Source: a virus. From it: a DNA stretch of 64,000 bases. A program made the translations under genes and the position numbers. Below, piece by piece: positions 1,746 through 55,082 of this stretch. The stretch is taken from IMG/VR virus record IMGVR_UViG_3300033996_001333, positions 3,389 through 67,388 of that record. One strand, 5' to 3'. The notes beneath the pieces are model-generated. The model had not been told where the DNA came from. It made no database searches and saw only the letters and a list, made by a program, of their open reading frames with translations. Each line of letters starts with the position of its first letter. The stretch's first letter is position 1.

Positions 1746-2150
1746 ATGAAGCAGCAAAACACACAACCAACTCCAACCGACACAAAACAGATGAAAAAAG
1801 CTATTTACAAGTTCTTCTTCGATTGCGGACGAATGGGCGAGCTTGAGGGAATTTTCGTTGCCGAACCTCAAGAAGTCAAAAGGTTGATCGATAGCGGGAA
1901 AGAACTTTACTTCGGTGAAGTTCTCGGAAAGCACAGCGAAATTTCCGGAGTTGTCTCCGTGGAAAATTTCATCTTCGTAACAGATGAGGAAGAAATTGTA
2001 AACTTCTTCGAGATTCACGAGATGGCAACGGGCATTAACCCGCTTAGTTACTTCGAAGAAGAGGGTGCTGAGGATGACATTAATGAAGAGGACAGTGGTG
2101 GCGACGTTCTAAGCGAGGACCATTCTTTTGAGGGCTTCCCGTGGAACTAA
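1746..2150 (+). CDS. hypothetical acidic protein
   Basis: 134 aa with Glu/Asp-rich C-terminus. Follows element copy 1. Confidence 0.45.
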   Translation: MKQQNTQPTPTDTKQMKKAIYKFFFDCGRMGELEGIFVAEPQEVKRLIDSGKELYFGEVLGKHSEISGVVSVENFIFVTDEEEIVNFFEIHEMATGINPLSYFEEEGAEDDINEEDSGGDVLSEDHSFEGFPWN

Positions 2151-2365
2151 TCAACACTAAACTGATCGACAAGCTAAGGTCCGTAGCCTCGAAGCGCCAC
2201 CTTTTAGACCGAATGGACGAGCAGGGGGCATATGACTTTGACCTGAGCAACATAGACAGGGTGGACGACGCCTTTGACAGTGGATGCAAAGTCGGAGAGA
2301 TTTATTTTGCACGAGAACTTTGCACACTATTACGCATAGAGTACACAATTGAGTCCGACGACTGA
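2141..2365 (+). CDS. hypothetical protein
   Basis: 74 aa ORF. Start overlaps the upstream stop. Confidence 0.4.
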   Translation: MELINTKLIDKLRSVASKRHLLDRMDEQGAYDFDLSNIDRVDDAFDSGCKVGEIYFARELCTLLRIEYTIESDD

Positions 2366-2379
2366 CTTACTGACCCCCA

Positions 2380-2730
2380 ATGAGCAAACCCCAAACAACC
2401 TTCAGCAACCTCTTAAGCAAACTTCAAGGGCTTAGCCTCAAGCAAACTGGTTACTGGGTTGACGACCTTCCGGAAGACATCTACGAAAACTTCTTCTACG
2501 ACACCAACTACGAAGTTGTGGCTAGGGACTTAGACCTTGATAGGCACAGGTGGTACGAAATTTCCACAGAAGTGATCAAGATTCACGGGTCTTTCCTTGG
2601 AATACGCCAAGTTACCCATATGAAGAACGAAAACGACAGTGTCGGAGACGCTAGCTTCGTGTATCAATTCTTTGAAATGCAGGAGAAAACAGTGACTTCC
2701 TACGAAAAGGTGCCAGGCAAATGCCCTTAA
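2380..2730 (+). CDS. hypothetical protein
   Basis: 116 aa ORF. Confidence 0.45.
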   Translation: MSKPQTTFSNLLSKLQGLSLKQTGYWVDDLPEDIYENFFYDTNYEVVARDLDLDRHRWYEISTEVIKIHGSFLGIRQVTHMKNENDSVGDASFVYQFFEMQEKTVTSYEKVPGKCP

Positions 2731-3065
2731 TTTACGTCTCGGCACCTTACAACGACCGCGACCCTACTGTTGTAAAGTTTCGTATGAACGCGGTGACTTA
2801 CGAACTCGCACACCTTGCATCGAAAGGGTTAGTGGCATTCTCGCCGTTGCTTATGCACTTTGCCCTGAGTTCAGGTATCGACTTGCCTACCGACTACAAA
2901 TTCTGGGAAAACCAGTGCCTAACGCTGCTGAGTAAGTCCGACGAGCTCTACGTCTTAACCTTACCTGGTTGGTGTGAGTCCACTGGAGTTCAGTCCGAGA
3001 TCTCTTTCGCACAGCTAAAGGGATTACCTTTCTCTCTCCACATTCCTGCGCTTCTAGGCGGTTAA
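2721..3065 (+). CDS. hypothetical protein
   Basis: 114 aa ORF overlapping the upstream gene by 10 nt. Confidence 0.45.
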   Translation: MPLIYVSAPYNDRDPTVVKFRMNAVTYELAHLASKGLVAFSPLLMHFALSSGIDLPTDYKFWENQCLTLLSKSDELYVLTLPGWCESTGVQSEISFAQLKGLPFSLHIPALLGG

Positions 3066-3130
3066 CCGTTTGCTCGGGGACGGTTTCCCGGCTTGGTTTC
3101 TCGAAAAGAAAGGGCTATAATACCTATAGC
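3061..3130 (+). promoter_or_regulatory. intergenic hairpin-TATAAT element copy 2
   Basis: GTTAACCGTTTGCTCGGGGACGGTTTCCCGGCTTGG...GGGCTATAATACCTATAGCCC. Double motif plus -10-like box. Confidence 0.55.
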
Positions 3131-3138
3131 CCAAACAA

Positions 3139-3154
3139 CCCCCCCCCCCCCCCC
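3139..3154 (+). repeat. C16 homopolymer tract in the EF-Ts leader
   Basis: 16 consecutive C between the -10-like box and the ATG at 3162. No SD sequence. Confidence 0.9.
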
Positions 3155-3161
3155 AAGTAAC

Positions 3162-3770
3162 ATGTCTTCCACCCCTCCAACAATCCTACAAGTTAAGTCC
3201 CTGCGAGAAAAGACCGGTGCGGGCCTGATTCTCTGCAAAGAAGCACTCATTTTTTCTGACAGTGATGAGGCCGGTGCGATCACGTGGCTGCGGCAGAAAG
3301 GAGTCGCCCTGGCTGACGGCAAGATCGGTCGGAGCGCACGAGAAGGTACTGTGGGCAGCTACATTCACACTGGCGGTAAGGTTGGAGTCCTTATCGAGGT
3401 CAACTGCGAAACGGACTTTGTGGCCAAGTCCGAACCCTTTCAGGAACTTGTTCGAAATCTTTCGATGCAAATTGCAGCGTGCCCCTCTGTGTGCCACGTT
3501 TCAATCTTTGATATCCCTGAGGAGACTCTCCTTGAGGAGACTCGGATTGAGTCCGGAAAGGCAGACCTTGCGAAGAAGCCCGAGGCAATTCGAAACAAGA
3601 TCGTTGAGGGTCGTGTGGCAAAGCGATTCAGAGAGCTGTCTCTCATGGACCAGCCCTACATCAAAGACAACTCAATGAGTATCGAAACATACGTGAAGAA
3701 CTTCGCTGCAATAGTTGGCGAAAACATCGTTGTGAAGCGATTCGTACGTTTTGTCCTCGGCAGCTCTTGA
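3162..3770 (+). CDS. tsf: translation elongation factor Ts (EF-Ts) homolog
   Basis: LREKTGAGLILCKEAL matches the EF-Ts N-terminal UBA-like motif (LRERTGAGMMDCKKAL). GKVGVLIEVNCETDFVAKSEPFQ matches the EF-Ts core (ILEVNCQTDFVAK). The C-terminus matches KPExI..KIVEGR...LSLLxQPFI. The track ORF 3093 has an N-terminal extension through the poly-C tract that is probably not translated. Confidence 0.8.
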   Translation: MSSTPPTILQVKSLREKTGAGLILCKEALIFSDSDEAGAITWLRQKGVALADGKIGRSAREGTVGSYIHTGGKVGVLIEVNCETDFVAKSEPFQELVRNLSMQIAACPSVCHVSIFDIPEETLLEETRIESGKADLAKKPEAIRNKIVEGRVAKRFRELSLMDQPYIKDNSMSIETYVKNFAAIVGENIVVKRFVRFVLGSS

Positions 3771-3784
3771 GTCTCCTTAAACAA

Positions 3785-4051
3785 ATGTGGTGCCCAGCCC
3801 TTTTACCATTGTGGATGCGAATGCCCCTGCCTCCGAGGGGCAAAAGACTCGAAGAGCTTCGAGCTGAGACCCTAGCCCTGAAGGAGGAAGAACTTTCCCT
3901 GAAGGAGGAAGAACTTTCCTACCGAGAAGACACACTGAGGCTAAGAGCCGAAGAGCTGAGGCTAAGAGCCCAGACCCTGGCCCTTAAAGAGCTGGGGCTT
4001 GAAATTGAGTTAAACGAGTTAAACGAGTTGAAACAACCCCGAAAACAATGA
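3785..4051 (+). CDS. coiled-coil protein with internal tandem repeats
   Basis: Repeats EELSLKEEELS and LRLRAEELRLRAQ. The DNA has a 21-bp tandem duplication at 3878-3921 and 3x GAGTTAAAC at 4008-4035. Confidence 0.4.
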   Translation: MWCPALLPLWMRMPLPPRGKRLEELRAETLALKEEELSLKEEELSYREDTLRLRAEELRLRAQTLALKELGLEIELNELNELKQPRKQ

Positions 4052-4260
4052 ACATCGAACTTGCAACACCTGGAACACGAGTAGCCTACGTCCCACTTCA
4101 TGCCTCAGGATGCCTAGACCACTTTGACGTTGAGTACGGCACGGTATCCTCTCACAATGGTAAGAATGTTTTCGTAAAGTTCAACGAGGCAGTGTCCCGT
4201 TTTGGGTGGGACGGGGCTACATCTCAGGCTTGTGACCCTGCCGATTTAGTAAAGGTTTGA
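4048..4260 (+). CDS. hypothetical protein
   Basis: 70 aa. Start overlaps the upstream stop (ATGA). Confidence 0.4.
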   Translation: MNIELATPGTRVAYVPLHASGCLDHFDVEYGTVSSHNGKNVFVKFNEAVSRFGWDGATSQACDPADLVKV

Positions 4261-4354
4261 CCGATTAGCCCTTAGCGGGTTTCCCTGTCTTGTTCACGTT
4301 ACAAACACCCGCTACACTTAGTTATCATACTCCGAAAACAACCTGAGCTTAAGC

Positions 4355-4612
4355 ATGGACAAGCCTTTCCTCTTGATTGCCGGTGATCATTACTACCCTT
4401 CACAAGGGTCAGAAGATTGGATAGCTCGTTTTGAAACTGTGAGCGAGGCTAGAGAGCAAATCGAGTACGTTGATTGTCCACGATTCTTCAAGTCTGGCCC
4501 CATGAAAGGCCAACTAAAAAGCAACAACATAACCTACCGAATTAAGTGCAGCAAAGACCCAGACCAGGAGTACGACTGGTACGAGATTGTTGACGTAAGG
4601 GACTGGGATTGA
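4355..4612 (+). CDS. hypothetical protein
   Basis: 85 aa ORF. Confidence 0.45.
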   Translation: MDKPFLLIAGDHYYPSQGSEDWIARFETVSEAREQIEYVDCPRFFKSGPMKGQLKSNNITYRIKCSKDPDQEYDWYEIVDVRDWD

Positions 4613-4654
4613 AAACCGCTAGTAACACACGTAGACAAACCAGTAACTGGAAAA

Positions 4655-5797
4655 ATGACAATTACACGAAAAGAAATTGAAGACGGGATGATCCTGTTTT
4701 GCAAGTCAGGCAGCCACGCCTATGGCCTCAACACCGAGATGTCCGACTTGGACTTTAAGGGAATCTGTGTGGCGCCACAGCGGTTTTACACCACTCTCGA
4801 AACATTTGAGCAAAAGGATAAGGGGTGGGTAGGGGAGCAACAAGACGAGGGTGAGTTCAACTCTAGATTCCCTGAGTTAGATAACTCGGATTCAGTGGTG
4901 TACGGCATTCGCAGGTACCTGAGCTTGTTGCGGTCGCAAAACCCCAACATTTTGGAGATGCTCTGGCAGACTCCCGACAGCTACCTGTACCTTGACTTTC
5001 TGGGGCAGTCGCTAATTGACAACCGGAGGAAGCTAATTTCCAGGAGAATCTCTGGCACATTCGTTCAGTACGCAAGGTCCCAGATCAAGAAAATGGAGAC
5101 TCACCGCAAATGGCTCTTAAACCCTCCAACACGGCGACCGGAGTGGGAGGACTACGGTGTCTCTTCCCCGAGCTTAACCCCGTCTCAAATCGAGTCTTTC
5201 ATCGAGTACTTGTACTTGCTGATTAAAGACAGAATCGAGTACTACCAACCTTCAGTCGAGCTGTACGAGCTTCTCAACGACCGTGTTGATTGGAAAGGAA
5301 TTTTGAAGCAGAGTGTCTTACCGGAGGAGTGCTTCAATGAAACACAGAAAATCACGAGAGCAAGCGATGAGTACATGGCCCTTCTCCACTCAAGCCAACA
5401 GTACCGGTCAGATTTAAAACGGTGGAGTAATTACCAAGATTGGTTGACTAATCGGAATGTGAAGCGATCCGAAATTGAGCGGGCCTGTGGGTACGACGGG
5501 AAGAACGCCAGCCACTGTGTTCGACTTATGAAAATGGCCATTGAGGGAATGCGAACCGGAGAGCTTCTTGTGAATAGAAAGTTGGTTGGGGACGCAGATT
5601 TTCTTCTGGACATTAAGTACGGCAGGATTACGTATGACGAACTAAGCACAATTGTAACTCAGCTCTTTAAGGAGGCTGAGCACGTGGGGAAGAACGAGTG
5701 CGTCTTGCCGAACACGGTAGATGACCAACTCATCAACACTCTCTGTGCTGAGACTGTGGAAAAATTTCAAAGTCTCGGTTGTATTGAGAACCGGTGA
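4655..5797 (+). CDS. pol-beta-type nucleotidyltransferase (PF10127/RlaP-like)
   Basis: Near the N-terminus, GSHAYGLNTEMSDLDFKG matches the GS...DxD nucleotidyltransferase motif. 380 aa. Confidence 0.55.
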   Translation: MTITRKEIEDGMILFCKSGSHAYGLNTEMSDLDFKGICVAPQRFYTTLETFEQKDKGWVGEQQDEGEFNSRFPELDNSDSVVYGIRRYLSLLRSQNPNILEMLWQTPDSYLYLDFLGQSLIDNRRKLISRRISGTFVQYARSQIKKMETHRKWLLNPPTRRPEWEDYGVSSPSLTPSQIESFIEYLYLLIKDRIEYYQPSVELYELLNDRVDWKGILKQSVLPEECFNETQKITRASDEYMALLHSSQQYRSDLKRWSNYQDWLTNRNVKRSEIERACGYDGKNASHCVRLMKMAIEGMRTGELLVNRKLVGDADFLLDIKYGRITYDELSTIVTQLFKEAEHVGKNECVLPNTVDDQLINTLCAETVEKFQSLGCIENR

Positions 5798-6306
5798 GCG
5801 CAAGGGTAACATTTTCTGTGCGAATGCATACTACTCCCATGACAATTGAGACCGAAGCCGTCGAAAAAATTGAGTTGGTTTTCTCGCACATAAAAAACGT
5901 GCAAAGGAGCTGTTACAAGCTTGGCCTGAAGCTAATGAAACGCGGCGACATTGAGCTGGGGCGCAACTTAATCGCAAACGGGCAGATCCATGACAATTCA
6001 AAGTTTAAGGGAATTGAGTTTGCACACCTTTTTCATTCAGACCCCTTGCTGTCCGAAGTCGTAAAACACCATCAGTCAGTGAACCCGCACCACCCTGAAT
6101 ACTGGGGGAGCATTCACGACATGCCCAAAGTTTACGTCGCGGAGATGGTTTGCGATTGGTACGCAAGGTCCACCGAGTTCGGAACAGGAGTGAGAGAGTG
6201 GATTGACGACAAGGCAACCGAAAAGTTCGCCTTTACAGTTGAAGATCCCATCTACGCGACCATACAGGAAATGCTATCGTTACTCCTTGAGCCTTCCTTC
6301 GCCTGA
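5794..6306 (+). CDS. hypothetical protein, possibly HD-like
   Basis: GTG start overlapping the upstream stop. The His/Asp-rich region HSDP...HHQSVNPHHPEY is only a weak match. Confidence 0.35.
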   Translation: MSARVTFSVRMHTTPMTIETEAVEKIELVFSHIKNVQRSCYKLGLKLMKRGDIELGRNLIANGQIHDNSKFKGIEFAHLFHSDPLLSEVVKHHQSVNPHHPEYWGSIHDMPKVYVAEMVCDWYARSTEFGTGVREWIDDKATEKFAFTVEDPIYATIQEMLSLLLEPSFA

Positions 6307-7847: not shown

Positions 7848-8037
7848 AGGGGACCTTGAAAAGTTGGTAGAAAATAGAGACATTCTGAGCTACTCTTACT
7901 CGGAGGTTAAAGGCTGCCAGGGTTCACATGGCGGAGAATACCTGCAACTCATTTTACCGTCCGGAGCTTGCATAGGGATAGGCTCCTGGTCAACACCCAC
8001 CCCTGAAACGAGTGGGCTAAGCATAGAAGTTTATTAG
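7831..8037 (+). CDS. hypothetical protein
   Basis: 68 aa ORF ending just before the ncRNA region. Confidence 0.35.
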   Translation: MPLMIEGDLEKLVENRDILSYSYSEVKGCQGSHGGEYLQLILPSGACIGIGSWSTPTPETSGLSIEVY

Positions 8038-8039
8038 GC

Positions 8040-8400
8040 GGACAGTCCTACCACACGACATTAAACTGGGTGTAGCTCTGGAAGATAGTGCCCTATACAG
8101 GGGTTCGAATCCCCTCACCTCCATTTGAGAACGTGACCGTCCCTTCTTCAACCTTCCGACTTACTGAGAAGGCAGGGTCACTGTGGGTTAAACTCCCACC
8201 TCTAGTCAAGGGGGTGCCATGGTCTCGCTAGGGTAAAGATGTCGCCTGAGTGAAAGCCGCTTGCATAAGCACAAAATAGACGCTAACAACATCGTCAAAT
8301 TCGAGAGGATTGCCGTTGCCGTTTGAGCAACCGCACTCTGACTCATAACTCGGGGGTTTCGGCCCCCTTACACCGCCAACTTTCCTAGCCAAAACAGCAC
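8040..8400 (+). ncRNA. ssrA: tmRNA (ssrA), circularly permuted two-piece type
   Basis: ORF-free 390-nt region. Acceptor piece: T-arm AGGGGTTCGAATCCCCT plus 3' acceptor strand CACCTCC at 8099-8123. Coding piece: GGGGGTGCCATGGTCTCGCTAGGG at 8210 resembles the tmRNA 5' end GGGGCUG.AAUGGUUUCGACG, and pairs with the 3' strand including a G3-U wobble. The tag ORF at 8282-8326, GCT AAC AAC ATC GTC AAA TTC GAG AGG ATT GCC GTT GCC GTT TGA, encodes (A)ANNIVKFERIAVAV*. Compare the Synechocystis tag ANNIVPFARKAAPVAA. Confidence 0.65.
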
Positions 8401-8428
8401 CCTACACTCCAACCCACGCTGAAACACT

Positions 8429-9779: not shown

Positions 9780-9868
9780 CCCTTGCCCATGGTGCGAGAC
9801 TCTAACCCTTACCTTGGGTCTTATATCCACCCAAGCAAGCCCGCTCAAACAAGAACCATACAAGGAAA

Positions 9869-10730
9869 AATGACAACTTTCGACAAATGCCTCGGAGCCT
9901 TTATTGGCCTTGCGATCGGTGACGCGATGGGTGCGCCAGTGGAGTTCTCTCCACCGGGGACCTTTGAGACCGTCACAGGTTACCGAGCAGGGGGGCCCTT
10001 TAATCTGCCGTCAGGCTACTGGACGGACGACACATCGCAGGCTGTTTGCCTTGCCGAGTCTTTTATTCATTGCAATGGGCAGATCAATCTTGGAGACCAA
10101 ATGCGTCGGTACTCCAACTGGTACGAGTACGGAAGGAACAGCTCAACAGGTGTCTGTTTTGACATCGGCAATGGAACACTTCGTGCAATTGAGACTTTTC
10201 TCGTTGAGGGGTCTTTGAGTCTCTATCCGGAGAATTCGAAAGGAAACGGGTCTTTGATGCGTTTATCCCCCGTTTCTATTGTGTACCACAAGTCAAGTGA
10301 GCAGGACGCTGTAGCAGCGTGTGACGCGTCATCATCAACAACCCATGGCCACTTGGCATCCGACCTATGCAAAGATCTCGGTCGTTTGCTGCACCAATAC
10401 TTAAATGGCACGGGGGGAAAACCTGAAGTCTCGCCGGAGGGAATTGAAAATTCCGGGTACGCACCGAAGTCCTTAAACGCCGCACTCTACCACTTTGGGT
10501 CAACTTCGTCCTTTGAAGAGGCCATCCTGCAGGCTGTGAACTACGGGGACGACTCAGACACGGTTGCTGCGATTACGGGGCAGCTAGCAGGTGCTTACTA
10601 CGGTTACAAGGCTATTCCTAAGCGATGGGTTTCGGGGTTGCACGACAGCGAAAGACTTTTGCTCATAGCGAGCACTTTGTACGACCTTTCGTTTGGGACG
10701 GTTTCCCCCCTTGTTTCTACTCTGAAATAA
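9869..10730 (+). CDS. ADP-ribosylglycohydrolase (ARH/DraG family)
   Basis: GAFIGLAIGDAMGAPVEF, YWTDDTSQ, GNGSLMRLSPV and YGDDSDTVAAITGQLAGAYYG are ARH family signatures. Start taken at MTTFDK. Confidence 0.75.
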
Positions 10731-16426: not shown

Positions 16427-16440
16427 TTTTACCCCGTGCG

Positions 16441-16488
16441 CGGCGGGAAACCGTCCTTTACCCTCGCCCCTAAACAAGCTATAGTAAG
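16441..16488 (+). promoter_or_regulatory. intergenic element copy 6 (GC hairpin in inverted orientation)
   Basis: CGGCGGGAAACCGTCC...CTAAACAAGCTATAGT. Confidence 0.45.
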
Positions 16489-16507
16489 CTCACACCGTAA
16501 AACAACA

Positions 16508-17449
16508 ATGCACGTGACCGAAACTAAAGAGTATCAGAAAACAGAGCCGATTGAGGTTTACTCGAATCGCGACGGACAAAACCTGTACAAGATTTCAAAG
16601 ACCTCCTTTACGTTCAGTGCCGGTGAAAGGCAGGTCCGGTTGCACGACACTCCAACAAATTCGACTGACATTATCGTAGACGCAGACATACACAGCGGAG
16701 AAAGTTTCGCAGAACTTCTTCTGACTCTGTCGGCCATCAAAGACCTTCCTGTGCTGCGAAGTCTACAATTGGACATCCCGTACTTACCTTATAGCCGCCA
16801 AGACCGCCAGTGCGCTGAAGGGGAAGCGTTTTCGCTAAGAACTTTTGTAAAAGCTCTCGCCCCTTATCTTAAGGGAGTGTGCGACCGGGTGTACACATGG
16901 GACGTGCACAGCCACGTTGCAAATGAGCTCTTTCGAACCGAAATCGGCTGCGAGTTCAACAACCTACAACCCCAACTGTTTCTCCAGAAGTTCAAAGACC
17001 GGGGGCAAGAGTTTAGTGCTGAGACAATTGTGATTGCTCCGGATAAAGGTGCAGTCGAAAGAGCAACCCTCGTACAACAAACACTGGGGCTCCACTCTGT
17101 AGTGTACGCTACGAAAGTTCGCAACCCTGAAGACGGGCAAATCCTAAGGACGGAAGTTCCAGAAGACGTCAGTTACAAGGGCAAAAACCTTCTGATTGTG
17201 GACGACATCTGCGATGGCGGTCGCACCTTTATCGAACTCGCCAAGGTGCTACGTCAGTTCGACCCGTCTCGAATTGACCTCTATGTAACTCACGGAATTT
17301 TCTCCAAGGGTTTTAAGGTGTTTGGGAGCTTAATCGACAACTTTTTCGTTGCGAACTTGCTCCCGTATAAAGCCTTTTACCAAGAGTTACCCTCGTACTT
17401 GACCTACCTTCGTACCGAAAACTACCCCACCCCACGCAACCAACCATGA
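16508..17449 (+). CDS. ribose-phosphate pyrophosphokinase homolog (Prs-like, or ADP-ribose pyrophosphokinase Adps-like)
   Basis: IPYLPYSRQDRQ matches MPYxGYARQDR. LIVDDICDGGRT is the PRPP-binding loop. Stop overlaps the next ATG. Confidence 0.75.
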   Translation: MHVTETKEYQKTEPIEVYSNRDGQNLYKISKTSFTFSAGERQVRLHDTPTNSTDIIVDADIHSGESFAELLLTLSAIKDLPVLRSLQLDIPYLPYSRQDRQCAEGEAFSLRTFVKALAPYLKGVCDRVYTWDVHSHVANELFRTEIGCEFNNLQPQLFLQKFKDRGQEFSAETIVIAPDKGAVERATLVQQTLGLHSVVYATKVRNPEDGQILRTEVPEDVSYKGKNLLIVDDICDGGRTFIELAKVLRQFDPSRIDLYVTHGIFSKGFKVFGSLIDNFFVANLLPYKAFYQELPSYLTYLRTENYPTPRNQP

Positions 17450-18960
17450 AAATTTTTGCGCCCCACGCAACCGACTTTTACAAGACAGGACACCCTTCGC
17501 AAAACCCTGAAGGCACCGAAGTAATCTACGCCAACATGACGGCAAGGTCCGACCGTCTGGCGAACATGCCCGCTGACTTCGACCACAAGATCGTCGTGGC
17601 CAACATCCAGGGGACAATGAAATGGATGCTGAGGGATCTTTGGAATGAGACCTTTTTTCAGCAACCCAAGGCCAAGGTGTTGGACAAATACAAGCGGCGA
17701 ATGGACTCCTCGCTCGGAGAAGGTGTTGTCGGCACTGACCACATTGCTGAGCTTCACGACCTGGGTTACATGCCGCTGCATGTGAAGGCACTACCCGAGG
17801 GCAGCCGTGTTAACATCGGAGTGCCGTTTCTGACGGCGCAAAACACACACAATGAGTTTAAGTGGCTGGCCCCGTGGTTAACCAACTATGTCGAAACCGC
17901 CAAGTCGTCTGAGCTGTGGAAGGCCATCAACGTGGCAACCATCGCCTACGAGTTTCGCCGTCTTCTCGACCACTACGCTGAAACCACAGGGAGTAATCCG
18001 CAGTTTGTTGACTTTCAGGGGCACGACTTCTCCGCTCGCGGAGTCGGAGGCATTCACGATGCCGCTGCGCACCAAATCGGCCACCTTTTTTCCTTCAAGG
18101 GCACGGACACAATCCTTTCCATTGATTATTTGGAGGATTACTACGATTGCGGTTCCAATTTCATTGGGGGTAGTATTCCCGCTACGGAACACAGTGTGAC
18201 CTGCCTTGGCGGTCAAAGAAACGAATTAGAGACAATTCGTCGAATTATTACAAAAGTATACCCAACTGGGCCGGTCAGTGTAGTTTTTGACACTTGGAAC
18301 TACTGGGATGCACTGACTGTTATTGCACCCGCACTTAAGGAAGACATCTTAAATCGTCGTCCGAATTCTCAGGGCATCGCTAAGGTCGTATTCCGTCCCG
18401 ACAGTGGTGACCCTGAGAAAATCATCTGCGGTGACGCTGACGCTGAGCCAGGTAGCCGAGAGTACAAAGGTTCGCTTGAGCTTTTATGGGAGGTCTTCGG
18501 AGGAACGGTAAACGAGAAGGGTTTCAAGGTACTGAACCCTCGAGTTGGCTTAATTTACGGCGACTCAATCACTCTTCCACGGGCCAGGGCCATCCTGGAG
18601 CACATGAGGCAGCTTGGGTGGGCGTCCGAAAACATCGTGTTCGGTATCGGTTCCTACACCTATCAATACCATACACGGGACACGTTCGGTATCGCATACA
18701 AAACGACCTGGGGGCAAATTAACGGTGTCGCCGTTGAAACTATGAAGGACCCCATTACGGATCGCGGCACGAAAAAGTCGGCGTTGGGTCTACTGCGAGT
18801 TGAAAAGGATGGGGAGAACTTTGTTCTTCATCAACAGCAGACTCGTGAGCAAGAGCAGCGAGGCGAGCTTCGCACCGTGTTCTTAAACAGCGTGGTTTAC
18901 GGGGAGGATGTAAACTCACTGCCTAACATTCGTACTCGACTTCTCAACCCCGCAGCTTAG
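17446..18960 (+). CDS. nicotinamide phosphoribosyltransferase homolog (Nampt/NadV-like, or Namat-like)
   Basis: 504 aa. N-terminal TDFYKTGH (compare the Nampt TDSYK motif), internal FKGTDT. ATGA overlap with the Prs-like gene. Confidence 0.7.
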   Translation: MKIFAPHATDFYKTGHPSQNPEGTEVIYANMTARSDRLANMPADFDHKIVVANIQGTMKWMLRDLWNETFFQQPKAKVLDKYKRRMDSSLGEGVVGTDHIAELHDLGYMPLHVKALPEGSRVNIGVPFLTAQNTHNEFKWLAPWLTNYVETAKSSELWKAINVATIAYEFRRLLDHYAETTGSNPQFVDFQGHDFSARGVGGIHDAAAHQIGHLFSFKGTDTILSIDYLEDYYDCGSNFIGGSIPATEHSVTCLGGQRNELETIRRIITKVYPTGPVSVVFDTWNYWDALTVIAPALKEDILNRRPNSQGIAKVVFRPDSGDPEKIICGDADAEPGSREYKGSLELLWEVFGGTVNEKGFKVLNPRVGLIYGDSITLPRARAILEHMRQLGWASENIVFGIGSYTYQYHTRDTFGIAYKTTWGQINGVAVETMKDPITDRGTKKSALGLLRVEKDGENFVLHQQQTREQEQRGELRTVFLNSVVYGEDVNSLPNIRTRLLNPAA

Positions 18961-23950: not shown

Positions 23951-24601
23951 GTGACCAAAGCACCCCAACCCATGAAGTCTCCCCCTGAATCAGTTACAGG
24001 AAAACTTTTGCTGAAGCCAGGGGACAGTGTGTTTGTTCCTGGAAAAATACTTAAAAATTCACCCGACGGTCGAACCTGGGGCACTGAAGTTCCTTACCTT
24101 CACTTTCGGAAGAGTCCAGTAAAAGACGGTCTCTACGTTGTGTCCGACATCTGGATGCACCCGAAAGCAACAGACCCGAACGTTCCATCCTCGTACTGCT
24201 ACACTCTGGTAAGAGTCCGTGAGGATCGAACCTGGACAAATGAACGGCGTAATCACAGAACACTAAGAAGCTGCTTCTCCCCGGAAGACATGTCAGAGAC
24301 AAAACTCCCGTACAACTGCCTCGACTGGGACCAGCTCCTTCGAGACCAAGTAGTTACGTCCTACGCGTACACCCCTGGTGAAAAGTTCGACATGGACGAG
24401 TTTAGAAAAGATCTGGGCCAAGTTCTTTACAAGCACAAGGTTACTCTGTCAGTAGACACGAAGTTCTCCGACGACTGGGACGAGCACGGCACAAACCACC
24501 TTGTTGTCCTCGCTAACGGGGAAATAAGGGGTGACCTTGGGTCTGACTTTCCAAAGCGGAGATCAGCGCCAGCCTGGGACAGTGGGAAACGAAATCGCTA
24601 G
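23951..24601 (+). CDS. hypothetical protein
   Basis: 216 aa ORF upstream of the RNA ligase. Confidence 0.5.
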   Translation: MTKAPQPMKSPPESVTGKLLLKPGDSVFVPGKILKNSPDGRTWGTEVPYLHFRKSPVKDGLYVVSDIWMHPKATDPNVPSSYCYTLVRVREDRTWTNERRNHRTLRSCFSPEDMSETKLPYNCLDWDQLLRDQVVTSYAYTPGEKFDMDEFRKDLGQVLYKHKVTLSVDTKFSDDWDEHGTNHLVVLANGEIRGDLGSDFPKRRSAPAWDSGKRNR

Positions 24602-24656
24602 TCCCAACCTTGCCCAGATAAACAAAACTCAACGGTCCCACCCACCTAAAGCTGTC

Positions 24657-25769
24657 ATGGAACCTTTAAACCTGCGCCACTTTCTAATCGACTGGTTAAA
24701 CTACCGGGTCGAGACTGCTTTTGAAGCACTTGCCGAGCACGACATTCGTGTTGCTCGCGACGAACGTTACCCTGCTCTTTTTAACTTGAAGTATGGCAGT
24801 GTAATGGCGGACAAGTCACTACCGATTGTTCGTGCCTGCCGTGGTGCCGTAGTCGAACTTGTTGACGATGGCACGGGCTCCCCGTACTTTCGGCTGGTTG
24901 CGTACGCCTTCGACCGCTTTTTCAACGTTGGCGAGGGGTATGCCGCTGAGATTGATTGGTCCACTGCCCGTGTAGCTGAGAAGTATGACGGGTCTCTGAT
25001 CAAGTTGTTCAACTATAAAGGAGAGTGGTTGGTATCAACATCGGGTTCAGTCGCTGGTTCTTCGGAAGTCGGGACCACGGGTCGCTCCTTCTCCGAGTTG
25101 TTTTGGCACGTTTTTAACGAAGTTGGATATGACCGGGCTGACCTCGACCCTTATTTTGTCTACGTCTACGAGTTGTGCCACAAAGACAACAAAATTGTTG
25201 TAGACTACGAGACTCCCTTACTACCTCTTCTGGCTGTTCGAAGCCGCTTTGACGATCTAAACGAAGTGGATCTCAAGCATTTTGAAAACCGCTTCAACAT
25301 CGCTCAGACCTACGACCTGCGCTCACATGAAGCTGTAACGCAGTTTGTAAACGACTCCTCTCGTGGTACCGCTGAAGGCGTAATTATTGTCGACGGAAAC
25401 GGAAACCGCCAGAAAGACAAGTCCAACGTCTATTGTCAGTTGCACAGGGTTAAAGGAAACGGCGAACCGGATTTCTCCGAGCTTTTCCTGAACGACGACT
25501 TGGAAGAGTTTCTGCTTCACTTTCCCGAGTATCGTGGGGGTTTTGACGTTCACCTGCGTTCCATCGAAGTGATGGAGAGTGCGGTGAGCGAGAACATGAG
25601 GGCTCACAACCATCTTAACCAGAAGGATTTCGCTCAAGCCGTACTTGCCGAGTCAAAAGAACTTTCTGGAGCATGCTTTGCGATTCGATCCGGCAAAGTC
25701 GGATCCTTTGCAGAGTGGCTCGAAGGTTTAACCCCGAAAAAGCTCGACGTTTTGCTCGGAATTTCCTGA
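24657..25769 (+). CDS. RNA ligase, T4 Rnl1-like
   Basis: AEKYDGSLIKLF is nucleotidyltransferase motif I (KxDG), like T4 Rnl1 KEDGSL. 370 aa taken from the internal ATG (MEPLNL). Confidence 0.65.
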   Translation: MEPLNLRHFLIDWLNYRVETAFEALAEHDIRVARDERYPALFNLKYGSVMADKSLPIVRACRGAVVELVDDGTGSPYFRLVAYAFDRFFNVGEGYAAEIDWSTARVAEKYDGSLIKLFNYKGEWLVSTSGSVAGSSEVGTTGRSFSELFWHVFNEVGYDRADLDPYFVYVYELCHKDNKIVVDYETPLLPLLAVRSRFDDLNEVDLKHFENRFNIAQTYDLRSHEAVTQFVNDSSRGTAEGVIIVDGNGNRQKDKSNVYCQLHRVKGNGEPDFSELFLNDDLEEFLLHFPEYRGGFDVHLRSIEVMESAVSENMRAHNHLNQKDFAQAVLAESKELSGACFAIRSGKVGSFAEWLEGLTPKKLDVLLGIS

Positions 25770-39159: not shown

Positions 39160-40281
39160 ATGGCAAACATCGAACGCAAACTCGCCTCCGTCCGACAAGT
39201 AACGGAGATTCGCCCAATCCCGGACGCCGACGCAATTGAGTGCGCCATCGTGGGAGGTGGCTGGCCCGTTGTCGTGAAGAAGGGGGAGTTCCAAGCTGGC
39301 GATCTTGCAATCTACTTCGAGATTGACTCGTGGATCCCCCACGGGCTTGCCCCGTTCTTGTCAAAGGGGAAGGAACCAAGGGAGTACAATGGAGTGAAGG
39401 GGGAAAGGTTGAAAACCGTCCGGCTCCGTGGCCAAGTCTCTCAGGGTCTCCTACTTCGCTTCTCGGACATCTCTCCAAGCTTCTACGTTGTTTCGCTAGC
39501 TGAACCTTATGGGGGGAGGGGATCTCTCCGAGTTGATGAGTGTGTGTGGGAAGAAGGCGAAGATTTCACTCTAGAGTTTGGCATTCAGAAATGGGAGGCC
39601 ACGGTCCCCGCTTGCCTTGCCGGACAAGTGCGTGGAAACTTCCCGAGTTTTTTGGTTAAGAGTGACCAAGAGAGATGTCAAAATATCGTGAGAAAAATCT
39701 TCGAGGAGCACAAGGAGGAAACCTACGAAGTATCCTTGAAGCTGGACGGGTCTTCCTGCACCATTTATGCCCGAGACGGGGACAGTGGCGTGTGTAGCCG
39801 CAACCTAGACCTTAAGGAAACAGAAGGAAACAGCTTCTGGAAGGCTGCTCGAGAACAAGGTGTAATCGACGCCTTGCTGTCCTATAATAAGGAAACCGGT
39901 CGCAACATTGCTCTTCAGATGGAGCTGTGCGGTGAAGGAATTCAAGGAAACCAAGAAGGAATCAAAGGACAACGGCTTTTTCTTTTTGACGTCTTCGACA
40001 TCGACACTCAGACCTACATGAAGCCGGGGCAGCGACTTGTTTTCCTTGACGAGGTTTTGACTGAGCTTGGGGCCAAGTTGGAACACACTCCCATTATTGA
40101 CCTTCGAACTTACGTTGCCGGACGATTCGCCAACCTTGACGAGCTACTTGCTTATGCAGATGGTCCGTCTATGAACCCAAAAGTCAAGCGTGAAGGTGTG
40201 GTGTTCAAATCGTACGACTCCGCGTTCTCCTTCAAGGCCATTAGCAACGAGTGGTTGCTGTGGAAAGGGAAGAAAGGGTGA
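39160..40281 (+). CDS. RNA ligase, DraRnl/DRB0094-like (Rnl5 family)
   Basis: N-terminal KLASVRQVTEIRPIPDADAIECAIVGGGWPVVVKKGEFQAGDLAIYFEIDSWIP resembles the DRB0094-family N-domain. Motif I candidate VSLKLDGSS (KxDG). Confidence 0.55.
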   Translation: MANIERKLASVRQVTEIRPIPDADAIECAIVGGGWPVVVKKGEFQAGDLAIYFEIDSWIPHGLAPFLSKGKEPREYNGVKGERLKTVRLRGQVSQGLLLRFSDISPSFYVVSLAEPYGGRGSLRVDECVWEEGEDFTLEFGIQKWEATVPACLAGQVRGNFPSFLVKSDQERCQNIVRKIFEEHKEETYEVSLKLDGSSCTIYARDGDSGVCSRNLDLKETEGNSFWKAAREQGVIDALLSYNKETGRNIALQMELCGEGIQGNQEGIKGQRLFLFDVFDIDTQTYMKPGQRLVFLDEVLTELGAKLEHTPIIDLRTYVAGRFANLDELLAYADGPSMNPKVKREGVVFKSYDSAFSFKAISNEWLLWKGKKG

Positions 40282-46648: not shown

Positions 46649-48133
46649 ATGACAACGCCATCCTTTTTAAACGCACTCGAAAACGAGTTTAACCAAACCA
46701 TCACCGCTAACGGTGCAAAGGCATACAAGTCCACCGAGTCTAAGTGCCTGGACCTCTTTGGAAAGATTGCAGCTTGCCGTGACAACATCAGCGAAGCAAC
46801 TCGCCTATTCAATCTTGCTTATGCCGAAAACCCTGAGACCGCAACTCGAATCCTGTTTTGGGCACGCGACATTCGTGGGGGCCAGGGAGAGCGAAAGATC
46901 TTTCGAGAAGTTTTTAAGGAACTCGTCCTCAATGACGCTGCAATTGGTGCCAGGCTAGTTAGCCTGATTCCACAGTACGGTCGCTGGGATGATGTGGTAG
47001 CCCTCGACGGTACCTTAGTTTGGGGCATCGCACTCGAAGCAATTAAGGCACAACTGAACGCCGACCTAAATACGGAAGTTGGAAAGTCAGTGTCACTTCT
47101 GGCAAAGTGGCTGCCTTCCATTAACGCTTCCAGCCAGGACTCTAAGAGGATTGGCCGAAAAATTGCCGAAGCAATGGGTTGGACCGAGAGACAGTACCGC
47201 AAGGCACTGACTGCCCTCAGGACCCAAGTCAAAATTGTTGAGCAGCCAATGTGTGCTCGTGAGTGGGAAAGCATTGACTATAGCAAGTTGCCTTCTCGGG
47301 CCGGCTTTATGTACCGTAAAGCTTTCGTCAAGCGCGACGGCAACCGCTACCAATCCTACCTTGACTCGGTAGAAAAAGGTGAGGCAAAAATCAATGCCGG
47401 TACGATCTACCCTTACGAGATCGTGCACAAGTACCTTTACGGGGGCGATAGGAGTGATCAAACCTTAAACTTAATGTGGGAAGCTCTACCCAACTACATG
47501 GAAGGAGAGCAGCTGAACGGCCTGGTAATTGCCGACGTCTCAGGATCAATGGGAAACAACGGCGGCATGCCCATGGCGGTTTCAATCTCGCTGGCGATGT
47601 ACATCGCTGAGCGTAACACCGGGGCATGGAAGGATAAGTTCCTAACCTTCTCCGGAAGTCCGCAGTTGCAGTCGGTTACAGGGAGAAACGTTGCTGAGCG
47701 TGTTAGTAACCTTAGTCGGGCCGACTGGGGTGCGAATACAGACCTGCAAGCAGTCTTCAATCTTGTGTTGGCTACCGCAACGAGGAACCATATTCCTGAG
47801 GGGGAAATGCCGCGCAAGCTCATCATTGTCTCAGACATGCAGTTTGATTCCTGCTGCAGAAACAACTCAGTGACAAACTTTGAGGCGGTGCGAATCAAGT
47901 ATGCTCAAGCAGGGTATTCCTTGCCGGAACTTGTCTTCTGGAATGTTAGCTCTAGCGGCAACGTACCTATGAAAATGCATGATACGGGGACTTGCCTGGT
48001 CTCCGGATGCAGCCCTTCAATCCTGAAAGCTGTGCTTACTGGCGGGGTAATTACGCCTGTAGGGGTTATGCGTGACGCTGTTTACACTGAAAGGTACGAC
48101 GCTGTCGGTGCCGTATTTGCTGAAGGAGCATGA
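46649..48133 (+). CDS. vWA/MIDAS protein with N-terminal helical TROVE/DUF2828-like region (Ro60-like architecture)
   Basis: C-terminal LVIADVSGSMGNNGGMPMAVSISLAMYIAE carries the vWA MIDAS motif DxSGS. The helical N-terminal 300 aa and the 494-aa size fit DUF2828/Ro60-like proteins. Confidence 0.5.
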   Translation: MTTPSFLNALENEFNQTITANGAKAYKSTESKCLDLFGKIAACRDNISEATRLFNLAYAENPETATRILFWARDIRGGQGERKIFREVFKELVLNDAAIGARLVSLIPQYGRWDDVVALDGTLVWGIALEAIKAQLNADLNTEVGKSVSLLAKWLPSINASSQDSKRIGRKIAEAMGWTERQYRKALTALRTQVKIVEQPMCAREWESIDYSKLPSRAGFMYRKAFVKRDGNRYQSYLDSVEKGEAKINAGTIYPYEIVHKYLYGGDRSDQTLNLMWEALPNYMEGEQLNGLVIADVSGSMGNNGGMPMAVSISLAMYIAERNTGAWKDKFLTFSGSPQLQSVTGRNVAERVSNLSRADWGANTDLQAVFNLVLATATRNHIPEGEMPRKLIIVSDMQFDSCCRNNSVTNFEAVRIKYAQAGYSLPELVFWNVSSSGNVPMKMHDTGTCLVSGCSPSILKAVLTGGVITPVGVMRDAVYTERYDAVGAVFAEGA

Positions 48134-49985: not shown

Positions 49986-50097
49986 GGGACCGTAGCTCAA
50001 CTGGTAGAGCACGAAAAGTTATCTTGACAAAGATACATCAGCAATTAAATTACCTCTTTTAAAGGCGCGGTTGCAGGTTCGAGTCCTGCCGGTCCCA
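49986..50097 (+). tRNA. tRNA-like gene with about 40-nt insertion in the anticodon region
   Basis: Acceptor GGGACCG/CGGTCCC, TA, D-arm GCTC-AACTGGTA-GAGC, T-arm GCAGG-TTCGAGT-CCTGC. 61 nt lie between the D-arm and the T-arm where 21-22 are expected. Confidence 0.4.
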
Positions 50098-54580: not shown

Positions 54581-54652
54581 GCCCTGGTAGCTCAGTGGAA
54601 GAGCACTGTCCTTCTAAGACACCGGTCGTGGGTTCGAATCCCCCTCAGGGCG
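54581..54652 (+). tRNA. tRNA-Arg (anticodon UCU)
   Basis: GCCCTGG-TA-GCTC-AGTGGAA-GAGC-A-CTGTC-CTTCTAA-GACAC-CGGTC-GTGGG-TTCGAAT-CCCCC-TCAGGGC-G. 72 nt, one mismatch each in the anticodon and T stems. Confidence 0.6.
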
Positions 54653-54992: not shown

Positions 54993-55082
54993 CTTAGTTT
55001 CAAGTCCTCGAAAACTCGTTAAAGAACACACCCACAGGTCATATCCGGTGAACGACACAGGAGTGGCCCACCACGGTGACAA

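What the first reader, a model, noticed from the sequence alone, without database searches (positions are those of the whole stretch)
3139..3770. Phage-encoded EF-Ts homolog preceded by a C16 homopolymer in its leader
A virus-encoded tsf is unusual. RNA phages borrow host EF-Ts, but DNA phages rarely carry their own.

The gene sits behind one of the conserved TATAAT/TATAGC boxes. Its 5' leader consists largely of 16 consecutive C residues (3139-3154) ending 7 nt before the ATG, with no Shine-Dalgarno sequence.

Poly-C tracts of this length are hypermutable by slipped-strand mispairing, as in the Bordetella fim promoters. They can also modulate transcription or translation. A C-rich leader could alternatively be a binding site for a C-tract-binding protein.

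The protein is short (about 200 aa), like cyanobacterial or organellar EF-Ts.
Basis: partly seen in the sequence, partly recalled or inferred. Interest (0 to 1): 0.65.

Follow-up and report, generated by a model that had tools for sequence, protein, structure and literature searches.

The report
Phage EF-Ts gene with poly-C leader
A large freshwater phage, probably one that infects cyanobacteria, carries its own intact copy of the translation factor EF-Ts; the run of 16 C's in front of the gene is a recent, length-unstable expansion that probably matters little, and phage EF-Ts genes have been reported before.

Summary
C16 lies at 3139-3154, 7 nt before the ATG at 3162, and is followed by a 202-aa ORF ending at 3770.

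**The gene.** The ORF is a genuine EF-Ts.
- It scores above the TIGR00116 cutoff.
- It matches Thermus EF-Ts end to end in sequence and predicted fold.
- The TDFV motif and the listed EF-Tu contact residues are kept.
- dN/dS is 0.06-0.2.
- It belongs to a phage-only clade (100/100 bootstrap) that is sister to cyanobacterial EF-Ts. The clade sits on contigs up to 282 kb, has no rpsB upstream and no phage EF-Tu was found.

Phage EF-Ts was already reported in huge phages (Al-Shayeb 2020).

**The setting.** The gene sits behind one of about 20 conserved sigma70-like promoter units. The missing Shine-Dalgarno is the norm in this genome.

**The C tract.**
- It is strain-specific. Three other assemblies are otherwise identical over 3.6-6.6 kb (one has two mismatches at its contig end) and carry C15, C15 and C18.
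- A 95%-identical relative has C5; 98%-identical relatives have a mixed 17-nt C-rich stretch.
- It lies in the 5' UTR, so it changes neither promoter spacing, reading frame nor predicted mRNA folding.

The best reading is a host-EF-Tu exchange factor that supports translation during infection, with a hypermutable tract that is probably near-neutral.

The parts
3074..3091 (+). G+C-rich hairpin (TCGGGGACGGTTTCCCGG) that opens the conserved promoter unit; terminator-like element after the upstream DUF1937 gene
   Evidence: Terminator-like hit. The same GGGnCGGTTTCCnCC element precedes about 20 promoters in the window.
3081..3121 (+). Conserved phage promoter unit: CGGTTTCC..CTTGGTTTC-N-GAAAG..TATAAT
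   Evidence: The pattern CGGTTTMC-N22-36-TAWRNT gives 22 matches against 0.19 expected. The same unit lies upstream of tsf in relatives L007, L017, L032 and L029.
3093..3098 (+). -35-like hexamer TTGGTT, 17 nt upstream of the -10 box
   Evidence: Read from the sequence. The position is conserved as CTTG(Y)(Y) in the other units.
3116..3121 (+). -10 box TATAAT
   Evidence: The other units have TATAAT or TATAGT at the same place.
3112..3132 (+). Perfect 8-bp inverted repeat GGGCTATA-ATACC-TATAGCCC that embraces the -10 box. It is unique to this promoter and shared only with the closest strains.
   Evidence: Single match within 3 mismatches in the window. Present in L001, L002 and L007; degenerate in L017, L032 and L029.
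3139..3154 (+). C16 homopolymer in the predicted 5' UTR (about +10 to +26 if transcription starts about 7 nt after the -10 box)
   Evidence: Lengths are 15, 15 and 18 in otherwise near-identical assemblies and 5 in a 95%-identical strain.
3162..3770 (+). tsf: 202-aa minimal (Thermus-type) elongation factor Ts, stop codon included
   Evidence: Family and sequence matches. Predicted fold. Clade alignment and tree. Purifying selection.

Best explanation
Window 3162-3770 encodes a functional, minimal-architecture EF-Ts: an N-terminal UBA-like domain plus one core domain, with no C-terminal helix.

**Origin.** It belongs to a phage-specific clade that split from the cyanobacterial EF-Ts lineage. 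Large freshwater phages carry it (contigs up to 277-282 kb). Their likely hosts are cyanobacteria.

**Expression.** The gene is transcribed from one of about 20 copies of a conserved sigma70-type promoter unit. Like the phage's other genes, it is translated without a Shine-Dalgarno sequence, from a short, unstructured, A/C-rich leader.

**Mechanism (inferred).** The protein binds host EF-Tu, since no phage EF-Tu was found. It uses the conserved TDFV wedge to eject GDP. A higher EF-Ts:EF-Tu ratio would keep EF-Tu·GTP·aa-tRNA supplied during infection. It would work alongside the phage's tmRNA, tRNAs and RNA-repair enzymes.

**The C16 run.** It is a recent, strain-specific slipped-strand expansion of a C5 run in that leader.
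- It is hypermutable in length.
- It lies between the -10 box and the start codon, so it does not act as a classical on/off switch.
- It is most likely neutral, or at most a mild modulator of expression.

**Shown:** gene identity, fold, conservation, clade structure, promoter family, and tract polymorphism and position. **Inferred:** exchange activity on host EF-Tu, the transcription start site, and the neutrality of the tract.
For: **Identity.**
- Pfam EF_TS, E = 3.8e-30.
- TIGR00116, 145 bits against a cutoff of 104.
- Thermus EF-Ts 1AIP_C, E = 1e-44 over residues 7-195 of 196.
- AlphaFold model with pLDDT 86. TM 0.72-0.75 to 1AIP; core domain rmsd 1.8 A to 1TFE.

**Contact residues** named in PMC3747624, mapped through the 1EFU_B alignment:
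- D80/F81 -> D85/F86
- I125/G126 -> V185/G186
- H147 -> H69
- I151 -> V74
- K166 -> R98
- M170 -> M102
- A174 -> A106
- V234 -> I167

Most of these are invariant across the clade alignment.

**Selection.** dN/dS is 0.06-0.21 against five relatives.

**Clade.**
- Phage proteins are monophyletic in 100/100 bootstraps.
- Cellular cyanobacteria are monophyletic in 92/100.
- The two groups together are supported in 100/100.
- The best cellular hits are all cyanobacterial at 53-61% identity; others are 52% or less.

**Phage context.**. Cyanobium has rpsB-tsf.

**No phage EF-Tu.** No contig appears in both the EF-Ts list and the EF-Tu list.

**Promoter family.**

**SD-less genome.**

**The tract.**
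- It is the only difference over 5-6.6 kb between the window and L001 or L002.
- L007 has C5. L017 and L032 have CCCCCTCTACCACACCT.
- A second lineage independently has C8 where its sister has CCTCCC.
- Predicted folding is unchanged between C5 and C16.

**Prior hypothesis.** Al-Shayeb et al. proposed that phage elongation factors maintain translation efficiency (PMC7162821).
Against: - No biochemical or expression data exist. Exchange activity, the partner EF-Tu and the transcription start are all inferred.
- The whole phage clade has two substitutions in the otherwise very conserved N-terminal motif: TGAGMM**D**CK**K**AL becomes TGAGMM**L**CK**E**AL. It also lacks the C-terminal module that contacts EF-Tu domain I in E. 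coli. Affinity or specificity could therefore differ from a housekeeping EF-Ts.
- The host is not proven. The nearest isolate link is a single gene, 62% identical to Synechococcus phage B3.
- The EF-Tu absence test relied on a few peptide patterns and on incomplete contigs.
- Neutrality of the tract is not shown. All four long alleles are at least 15 nt and persisted across several samples, which could reflect selection.
Confidence: 0.7

Rival explanations
1. The C tract is a phage contingency locus. Slippage produces a population with different leader lengths, and these tune EF-Ts dosage. The effect could come from a G-quadruplex or polymerase slippage on the G16 template strand, or from altered 30S/S1 loading on the leader. 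The result would be bet-hedging across hosts or conditions.
For: - Length is the only variable site in 5-6.6 kb of otherwise identical DNA from independent samples.
- Long alleles of 15-18 nt persist in at least four assemblies.
- C-run growth recurs in the tsf leader of a second lineage.
- Contingency loci have been described in phages (PMC12633550).
- With C16 the spacer from -10 to ATG is 40 nt; with C5 it is 29 nt. The modal range for this promoter family is 21-32 nt.
- Own inference: 15 G is the minimum for a G3N1G3N1G3N1G3 quadruplex.
Against: - The tract is not between -35 and -10 and not in the ORF, so no known switch geometry applies.
- Predicted mRNA structure is identical with C5 and C16; the first 65 nt or so are unpaired.
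- Close relatives keep an intact, purifying-selected tsf with C5 or with no tract.
- Variation of 15-18 nt cannot be told apart from sequencing or assembly slippage. One contig breaks at the tract.
Confidence: 0.17
2. The phage EF-Ts is a specialised EF-Tu binder rather than a simple booster. It might shield or sequester host EF-Tu from EF-Tu-targeting defences. Alternatively it might recruit EF-Tu into a phage complex, as Qbeta replicase does with host EF-Tu and EF-Ts.
For: - The clade has its own changes in the EF-Tu-binding N-terminal helix (D->L, K->E) and has lost the C-terminal module.
- EF-Tu is cleaved by Lit and by type IV Thoeris, and is built into Avs7 (PMC13581612).
- The gene lies among candidate counter-defence and RNA-repair genes: NAMPT with PRPP synthetase, an ADP-ribosylglycohydrolase, Rnl1- and Rnl2-like ligases, RlaP, and a Ro-like protein.
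Against: - All catalytic and contact residues for nucleotide exchange are kept under strong purifying selection. A mere decoy would not need this.
- Thermus EF-Ts is a normal exchange factor with the same truncated architecture.
- No partner gene is conserved next to tsf across lineages.
Confidence: 0.1
3. The 15-18 nt length differences are purely technical (library PCR, Illumina homopolymer error, assembler choice). The real tract has one fixed length.
For: - Long G/C homopolymers are error-prone in short-read data (own knowledge).
- L003 ends 17 nt upstream of the tract, with two mismatches at the contig end.
- Only consensus assemblies were available, not reads.
Against: - The difference between C5 (L007), C8 (L023, L024) and C15-18 is too large to be technical, and the flanks match.
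- Tracts shorter than typical assembly k-mers are normally resolved by read majority (own knowledge).
- Two independent assemblies agree on 15.
Confidence: 0.25
4. The true start is the TTG at 3093. This would give a 225-aa protein whose N-terminal extension reads the C tract as poly-proline, so tract length would switch the extension in and out of frame.
For: the ORF listing reports a 225-aa ORF at 3093-3770 that is in frame through C16.
Against: - C15 and C18 alleles put the TTG out of frame, yet the downstream protein is identical.
- The TTG lies in the -35 hexamer, upstream of the -10 box.
- Every homologue starts at the position of ATG 3162.
Confidence: 0.02

Closest known systems
Translation elongation factors encoded by huge phages (Al-Shayeb et al. 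2020, Nature 578:425; PMC7162821)
   Same: - A dsDNA phage with a very large genome carries EF-Ts together with tRNAs and a tmRNA.
- The proposed role is to maintain translation efficiency during infection.
   Different: - This is a distinct, well-populated clade of cyanobacterial ancestry, found in freshwater phages up to about 280 kb.
- It is 202 aa and lacks the C-terminal helix.
- The closest huge-phage record in the INPHARED set (LR756511) matches only residues 10-106, at 35% identity.
Thermus thermophilus EF-Ts (PDB 1AIP, 1TFE)
   Same: - Same length class (196 vs 202 aa) and the same end point (...RFxRFxLG).
- Same domain order and the TDFV motif.
- 44% identity, TM 0.72-0.75.
   Different: - Thermus Cys190, which forms the inter-subunit disulphide (own knowledge), is Val in the phage protein.
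- Dimerisation of the phage protein is untested.
Cyanobacterial EF-Ts (for example Cyanobium, Microcoleus, Moorena; about 219 aa, in an rpsB-tsf operon)
   Same: Nearest cellular relatives at 53-63% identity, and sister group in the tree.
   Different: - The cellular proteins carry the C-terminal EGIEKxESNFAEEVAAQ helix and the MMDCKKAL motif, and lie directly after rpsB.
- The phage gene is an orphan with its own promoter.
Qbeta (Leviviridae) replicase, which uses host EF-Tu and EF-Ts
   Same: A phage depends on the EF-Tu/EF-Ts pair (PDB 3MMP and 3AGP appear among the hits; PMC13581612).
   Different: - Qbeta borrows the host proteins as polymerase subunits.
- Here a DNA phage encodes its own EF-Ts, and no polymerase link is seen.
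Homopolymer contingency loci (Bordetella fim poly-C promoters; Campylobacter phage and T2/T4 repeat tracts, PMC12633550)
   Same: A long G/C homopolymer whose length differs between near-identical genomes.
   Different: - Known switches sit between -35 and -10 or inside an ORF.
- This tract sits in the 5' UTR, where no switch mechanism is established.
Poly(C) tracts in cardiovirus and aphthovirus 5' UTRs (own knowledge, not checked here)
   Same: A viral 5' leader that contains a length-variable poly(C) run.
   Different: - Those are RNA viruses of eukaryotes, with tracts of 60-400 nt.
- They are bound by host poly(rC)-binding proteins.
- There is no evidence of homology or of a shared mechanism.

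Membership tests
Elongation factor Ts (TIGR00116 / PF00889) | Profile score above the curated family cutoff | tested here: met
   TIGR00116 equivalog scores 145.3 bits against a cutoff of 104.05. PF00889 scores 105.5 bits against 27.
Elongation factor Ts (TIGR00116 / PF00889) | N-terminal three-helix UBA-like domain with the LRxxTGAG motif | tested here: met
   - L14, R15, T18, G19 and A20 are invariant in the clade alignment.
- The model has helices at 8-18, 22-31 and 36-45.
- UBA domains, including that of mitochondrial EF-Ts, appear in the fold search.
- PF25025 scores only 20.6 bits, below its 33.2 cutoff.
Elongation factor Ts (TIGR00116 / PF00889) | TDFV motif (Asp80/Phe81 wedge that displaces Mg2+ from EF-Tu) | tested here: met
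   T84-D85-F86-V87 are present and invariant in all 27 aligned sequences. The role of the motif is taken from PMC3747624 and PMC5770160.
Elongation factor Ts (TIGR00116 / PF00889) | Core-domain residues that contact EF-Tu domains I and III | tested here: met
   All eight residues listed in PMC3747624 are identical or conservatively replaced in the 1EFU_B alignment.
Elongation factor Ts (TIGR00116 / PF00889) | EF-Ts core fold | tested here: met
   Foldseek to 1AIP gives E = 5.5e-17 and TM 0.72/0.75. To 1TFE the rmsd is 1.8 A over 143 columns.
Elongation factor Ts (TIGR00116 / PF00889) | C-terminal module that contacts EF-Tu domain I (present in E. coli and cyanobacteria; not universal) | tested here: not met
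   It is absent from every member of the phage clade. It is also absent from Thermus EF-Ts and several other cellular EF-Ts, so it is not a defining feature.
Elongation factor Ts (TIGR00116 / PF00889) | Guanine-nucleotide exchange activity on EF-Tu | not testable with these tools
   This needs purified protein and an EF-Tu·GDP exchange assay.
Auxiliary translation genes of large phages | The gene lies on a phage genome, not on a host fragment | tested here: met
   - 36 IMG/VR contigs carry a relative, including contigs of 277 and 279 kb.
- A syntenic ENA contig is 282 kb long.
- Neighbours are syntenic phage genes, including a T4 Y07C family member, RlaP and DUF5662.
- PHROG hits.
- There is no rpsB upstream, unlike in Cyanobium.
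Phase-variable homopolymer (contingency locus) | Homopolymer long enough for slipped-strand mispairing | tested here: met
   C16.
Phase-variable homopolymer (contingency locus) | Length polymorphism among otherwise identical genomes | tested here: inconclusive
   Lengths of 15, 15, 16 and 18 occur with no other difference from the window in L001 and L002, and only two contig-end mismatches in L003. Only consensus assemblies were available, so a technical origin cannot be excluded. C5 against C15+ between strains is real.
Phase-variable homopolymer (contingency locus) | The tract is placed where its length changes expression (promoter spacer or ORF) | tested here: not met
   The tract is 17 nt downstream of the -10 box and 7 nt upstream of the ATG. 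There is no predicted structural effect.
Phase-variable homopolymer (contingency locus) | Reversible phenotypic switching | not testable with these tools
   This needs reporter assays or infection experiments.

The most novel reading that the evidence does not exclude
The phage-clade EF-Ts may be a specialised EF-Tu-binding protein rather than a simple booster. The clade has D->L and K->E changes in the N-terminal EF-Tu-binding helix and lacks the C-terminal module. It might hold host EF-Tu in a complex that resists EF-Tu-targeting abortive-infection systems (Lit-like proteases, type IV Thoeris caspase-like cleavage, Avs7). The hypermutable 5'-UTR C tract would then give the phage population a spread of EF-Ts dosages as a bet-hedging device.
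Probability: 0.07. Interest if true: 0.8.

Novelty: new member of a known kind. Interest (0 to 1): 0.4.

Why it matters
- It gives a concrete, testable example of a phage-encoded elongation-factor gene. The clade is conserved, under purifying selection, and of clear cyanobacterial ancestry in abundant freshwater phages.
- The protein is small (202 aa) and has a solved structural homologue. That makes it a convenient case for asking whether viral translation factors really boost host translation or do something else with EF-Tu.
- The C tract comes as a natural allelic series (C5, C8, C15-18, or a mixed 17-mer) in front of one gene. This is a ready-made experiment on whether 5'-UTR homopolymers affect expression in SD-independent translation.
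- Neither point overturns current understanding.

Tried and rejected
**Searches that found nothing.**
- Megablast of window 2000-6000 against 50,697 phage records gave no match.
- Exact or gapped pattern scans for the C-tract leader in IMG/VR and in JGI metagenome contigs gave no match. More tract alleles therefore could not be collected that way. The alleles came instead from exact-protein look-ups and a protein-pattern scan.
- The 13 tblastn hits for EF-Ts in the phage collection are mostly short fragments, or records that look like host DNA (for example a Salmonella record and 3-5 kb 'phage' fragments). They were not used as evidence.

**Weak link.**
- Synechococcus phage B3 shares only 2 of 114 window ORFs within the 41-kb region examined, so kinship with Kyanoviridae isolates is weak.

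**Ideas rejected.**
- *Host contamination or misassembly.* Rejected because of synteny in more than ten phage contigs, the absence of rpsB, and a monophyletic phage clade.
- *TTG-3093 N-terminal extension.* It is frame-incompatible with the C15 and C18 alleles.
- *Two-colour Illumina poly-G artefact.* The tract is internal, is flanked by matching sequence on both sides, and occurs in four assemblies.
- *Rho-utilisation site.* Poly(C) is the best Rho ligand, but cyanobacteria lack Rho (own knowledge), so this is unlikely if the host is cyanobacterial.
- *Leader hairpin or riboswitch.* Rfam finds nothing at the locus and the folding z-scores are positive.
Full report
**1. The observation**

The sequence reads ...GGGCTATAATACCTATAGCCCAAACAA-C16-AAGTAAC-ATG.
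- The C run occupies 3139-3154.
- The ATG is at 3162 and the stop codon ends at 3770, giving 202 aa.
- This is the only homopolymer longer than 7 nt in 64 kb.
- A C12 never arises in 100 dinucleotide-preserving shuffles.
- No SD core lies in the leader.

**2. The gene is a real EF-Ts**

Sequence and fold evidence:
- Pfam EF_TS, E = 3.8e-30.
- NCBIfam TIGR00116 (tsf, equivalog), 145.3 bits against a cutoff of 104.05.
- The best solved relative is Thermus thermophilus EF-Ts from the EF-Tu·EF-Ts complex (1AIP_C). E = 1e-44, aligned over residues 7-195 of 196.
- An AlphaFold2 model (pLDDT 86) matches 1AIP with TM 0.72-0.75. It matches the 1TFE core with rmsd 1.8 A.

I mapped the EF-Tu contact residues listed in PMC3747624 through the alignment to E. 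coli EF-Ts 1EFU_B:

| E. coli EF-Ts | Phage protein |
|---|---|
| D80 / F81 (TDFV wedge) | D85 / F86 |
| I125 / G126 | V185 / G186 |
| H147 | H69 |
| I151 | V74 |
| K166 | R98 |
| M170 | M102 |
| A174 | A106 |
| V234 | I167 |

R12 and K23 of the N-terminal domain correspond to R15 and K26 (own numbering of the E. coli sequence). Most of these positions are invariant across 27 aligned homologues.

dN/dS against five relatives is 0.06-0.21.

**3. It is phage-borne and belongs to a phage-specific clade**

Where the protein occurs:
- The exact protein occurs on several metagenomic contigs.
- Homologues at 94-98% identity lie on IMG/VR viral contigs of 88, 190 and 277 kb.
- Homologues at 77-79% identity lie on contigs of 201, 279 and 282 kb, with conserved neighbours: radical SAM, tsf, a T4 Y07C family gene, RlaP and DUF5662.
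- More distant members (59-65%) sit in other phage contexts, next to Thg1, a Ro-like protein, RNR, a SegE homing endonuclease and an RNA ligase.

What else the window encodes:
- NAMPT with PRPP synthetase.
- An ADP-ribosylglycohydrolase.
- Rnl1- and Rnl2-like RNA ligases.
- A Ro/TROVE-like protein.
- A 5'-3' exonuclease and a thymidylate kinase.
- Three or four tRNAs and a permuted tmRNA.
- Almost all genes are on one strand.

Contrast with cells: in Cyanobium, tsf follows rpsB directly. No phage context has rpsB.

Tree (neighbour-joining with 100 bootstraps):
- The roughly 200-aa phage proteins are monophyletic (100/100).
- Cellular cyanobacterial EF-Ts are monophyletic (92/100).
- The two groups are sisters (100/100).

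Across one genome per GTDB species, the best cellular matches are all cyanobacterial at 53-61% identity. Other phyla reach 52% or less. No cellular genome carries the phage type.

Features of the phage clade:
- All members end at ...RFVRFVLGxx.
- They lack the EGIEKxESNFAEEVAAQ helix of cyanobacterial EF-Ts.
- They share TGAGMM**L**CK**E**AL in place of TGAGMM**D**CK**K**AL.

Thermus EF-Ts has the same truncated end, so the architecture is compatible with normal function.

None of the EF-Ts-bearing viral contigs appears among 61 viral loci with an EF-Tu relative. This test is pattern-limited. The partner is therefore presumably host EF-Tu.

**4. Host**

The evidence is indirect.
- The EF-Ts has cyanobacterial ancestry.
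- The tmRNA is permuted and its tag begins ANNIV. I recall this as typical of picocyanobacteria, but did not check it here.
- The genome ignores Shine-Dalgarno sequences.
- The Ro-like protein is 62% identical to one in the 245-kb Synechococcus phages B3 and B23 (Kyanoviridae). There it is likewise followed by tRNA-Arg(TCT) and tRNA-Ile(TAT).
- Only 2 of 114 window ORFs hit the 41-kb B3 segment examined.
- B3 and B23 gave no tsf hit.

**5. Promoter and leader**

- The TATAAT at 3116-3121 is part of a unit of about 45 nt: G+C hairpin GGGnCGGTTTCCnCC, then CTTGYY (-35-like), then a small TTTC-N-GAAA palindrome, then CGGTATA(A/G)T.
- A pattern for this unit gives 22 matches against 0.19 expected. 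About 20 are on the + strand in front of genes.
- The spacer from the -10 box to the ATG is most often 21-32 nt. It is 40 nt for tsf with C16 and would be 29 nt with C5.
- Only 10 of 114 genes have an SD core at -18 to -4, against an 11.6% background.
- Leaders are A/C-rich and G-poor: G 16%, C 29%, A 34%.
- C4-C5 runs occur in several other leaders.
- The first 65 nt or so of the predicted tsf mRNA are unpaired whether the tract is C5, C16 or the 17-mer of relatives.

So 'no SD' and 'C-rich leader' are properties of this phage as a whole, not of this gene.

**6. The C tract**

| Locus | Relation to the window | Sequence at the tract position |
|---|---|---|
| Window | - | C16 |
| L001 | 0 mismatches in 6,610 bp; one gap, the tract | C15 |
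| L002 | 0 mismatches in 4,980 bp; one gap, the tract | C15 |
| L003 | 2 mismatches at the contig end; contig stops 17 nt upstream of the tract | C18 |
| L007 | 95% aa identity, same promoter and hairpin | C5 |
| L017, L032 | 98% aa identity | CCCCCTCTACCACACCT |
| L029 | 94% aa identity | CCCCTCAAACCTG |
| L023, L024 | 78% aa identity | C8 (sisters L018 and L019 have CCTCCC) |
| L004, L009, L012 | 74-79% aa identity | no tract and no dedicated promoter |

What this shows:
- The tract is a recent expansion of a short C run in a fast-evolving, C-rich leader.
- Its length is by far the most variable character of the locus.
- It is dispensable for maintaining the gene.

Limits: I cannot separate biological slippage from sequencing or assembly error for the 15-18 nt range.

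Position: the tract lies after the -10 box and before the ATG. The Bordetella fim mechanism (promoter spacer) and the ORF-frameshift mechanism of phage contingency loci (PMC12633550) therefore do not apply.

The upstream TTG-3093 ORF reads the tract as prolines. It is out of frame in the C15 and C18 alleles and lies in the -35 element, so it is not a real start.

**7. Interpretation**

Most likely, the phage makes its own EF-Ts to act on host EF-Tu and keep ternary-complex supply high. It would work with the phage's tmRNA, tRNAs and RNA-repair genes. This is the role proposed for phage elongation factors by Al-Shayeb et al., who already listed EF-G, EF-Tu and EF-Ts among huge-phage genes (PMC7162821).

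The C tract is probably near-neutral.

Less likely readings:
- The tract is a dosage rheostat.
- The protein is a specialised EF-Tu shield against EF-Tu-targeting defences (Lit, type IV Thoeris, Avs7; PMC13581612).

**8. Verdict**

This is a real feature and a new member of a known kind. It is of moderate interest as an experimental handle. It is not a surprise to specialists.

Noticed in passing
window 8034-8417 (+): Phage-encoded permuted (two-piece) tmRNA. ARAGORN gives the tag peptide ANNIVKFERIAVAV, and Rfam RF04321 scores 67.9 bits at 8068-8326. From memory, the start of the tag resembles picocyanobacterial tags, which would be a possible host clue.
   Followed up: partly
window, about 20 sites on the + strand (e.g. 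6358, 10699, 15730, 21797, 23904, 26558, 28407, 33249, 37153, 38626, 40303, 42642, 51305, 55763, 57911): A highly conserved promoter unit of about 45 nt: G+C hairpin GGGnCGGTTTCCnCC, CTTGYY, a TTTC-N-GAAA mini-palindrome, then CGGTATA(A/G)T. The pattern gives 22 matches against 0.19 expected. Two units (42642, 57911) place the ATG 6 nt after the -10 box, which implies leaderless mRNAs.
   Followed up: partly
window, all 114 predicted genes: The genome does not use Shine-Dalgarno sequences: 8.8% of genes have an SD core against an 11.6% background. Leaders are A/C-rich and G-poor, and position -1 is G in only 5% of genes.
   Followed up: partly
window 49986-50097, 54581-54652, 54904-54993, 55083-55167 (+): A tRNA cluster: Arg(TCT), a 90-nt Ile(TAT) and Ser(CGA). 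There is also a 112-nt Rfam tRNA hit that ARAGORN does not call, possibly an intron-containing or otherwise unusual tRNA. The order Ro-like gene, then tRNA-Arg(TCT), then tRNA-Ile(TAT) is shared with Synechococcus phage B3.
   Followed up: partly
window 3785-4051 (+): The small ORF directly after tsf is built from short tandem duplications: CCCTGAAGGAGGAAGAACTTTCC x2, GAGGCTAAGAGCC x2 and GAGTTAAAC x2. It encodes a coiled-coil-like LKEEELS / LRLRAEE repeat protein with no Pfam hit.
   Followed up: no
window 9783-10730, 16436-18960, 24531-25769, 39160-40281, 46649-48133, 4655-5797: A set of NAD-salvage and RNA-repair or candidate counter-defence genes: an ADP-ribosylglycohydrolase, PRPP synthetase with NAMPT, Rnl1-like and Rnl2-like RNA ligases, a Ro/TROVE-like DUF2828 protein, and an RlaP nucleotidyltransferase.
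   Followed up: partly
window 3112-3132 (+): A perfect 8-bp inverted repeat, GGGCTATA-ATACC-TATAGCCC, encloses the tsf -10 box. It is unique in the window and present only in the closest strains (L001, L002, L007). It could be an operator-like site or a chance product of the fast-evolving promoter.
   Followed up: partly
window 2715-2914 versus L007, L017, L029: Alignments of close relatives to the window all break across about 200 bp inside the DUF1937 gene just upstream of tsf. This suggests a small replaced or mosaic segment there.
   Followed up: no
L024 2768 and 3180; L023 2768: Related phages carry other homopolymers downstream of tsf (A11 or A9, and C9). This hints that slippage-prone runs are not rare in this phage group.
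   Followed up: no
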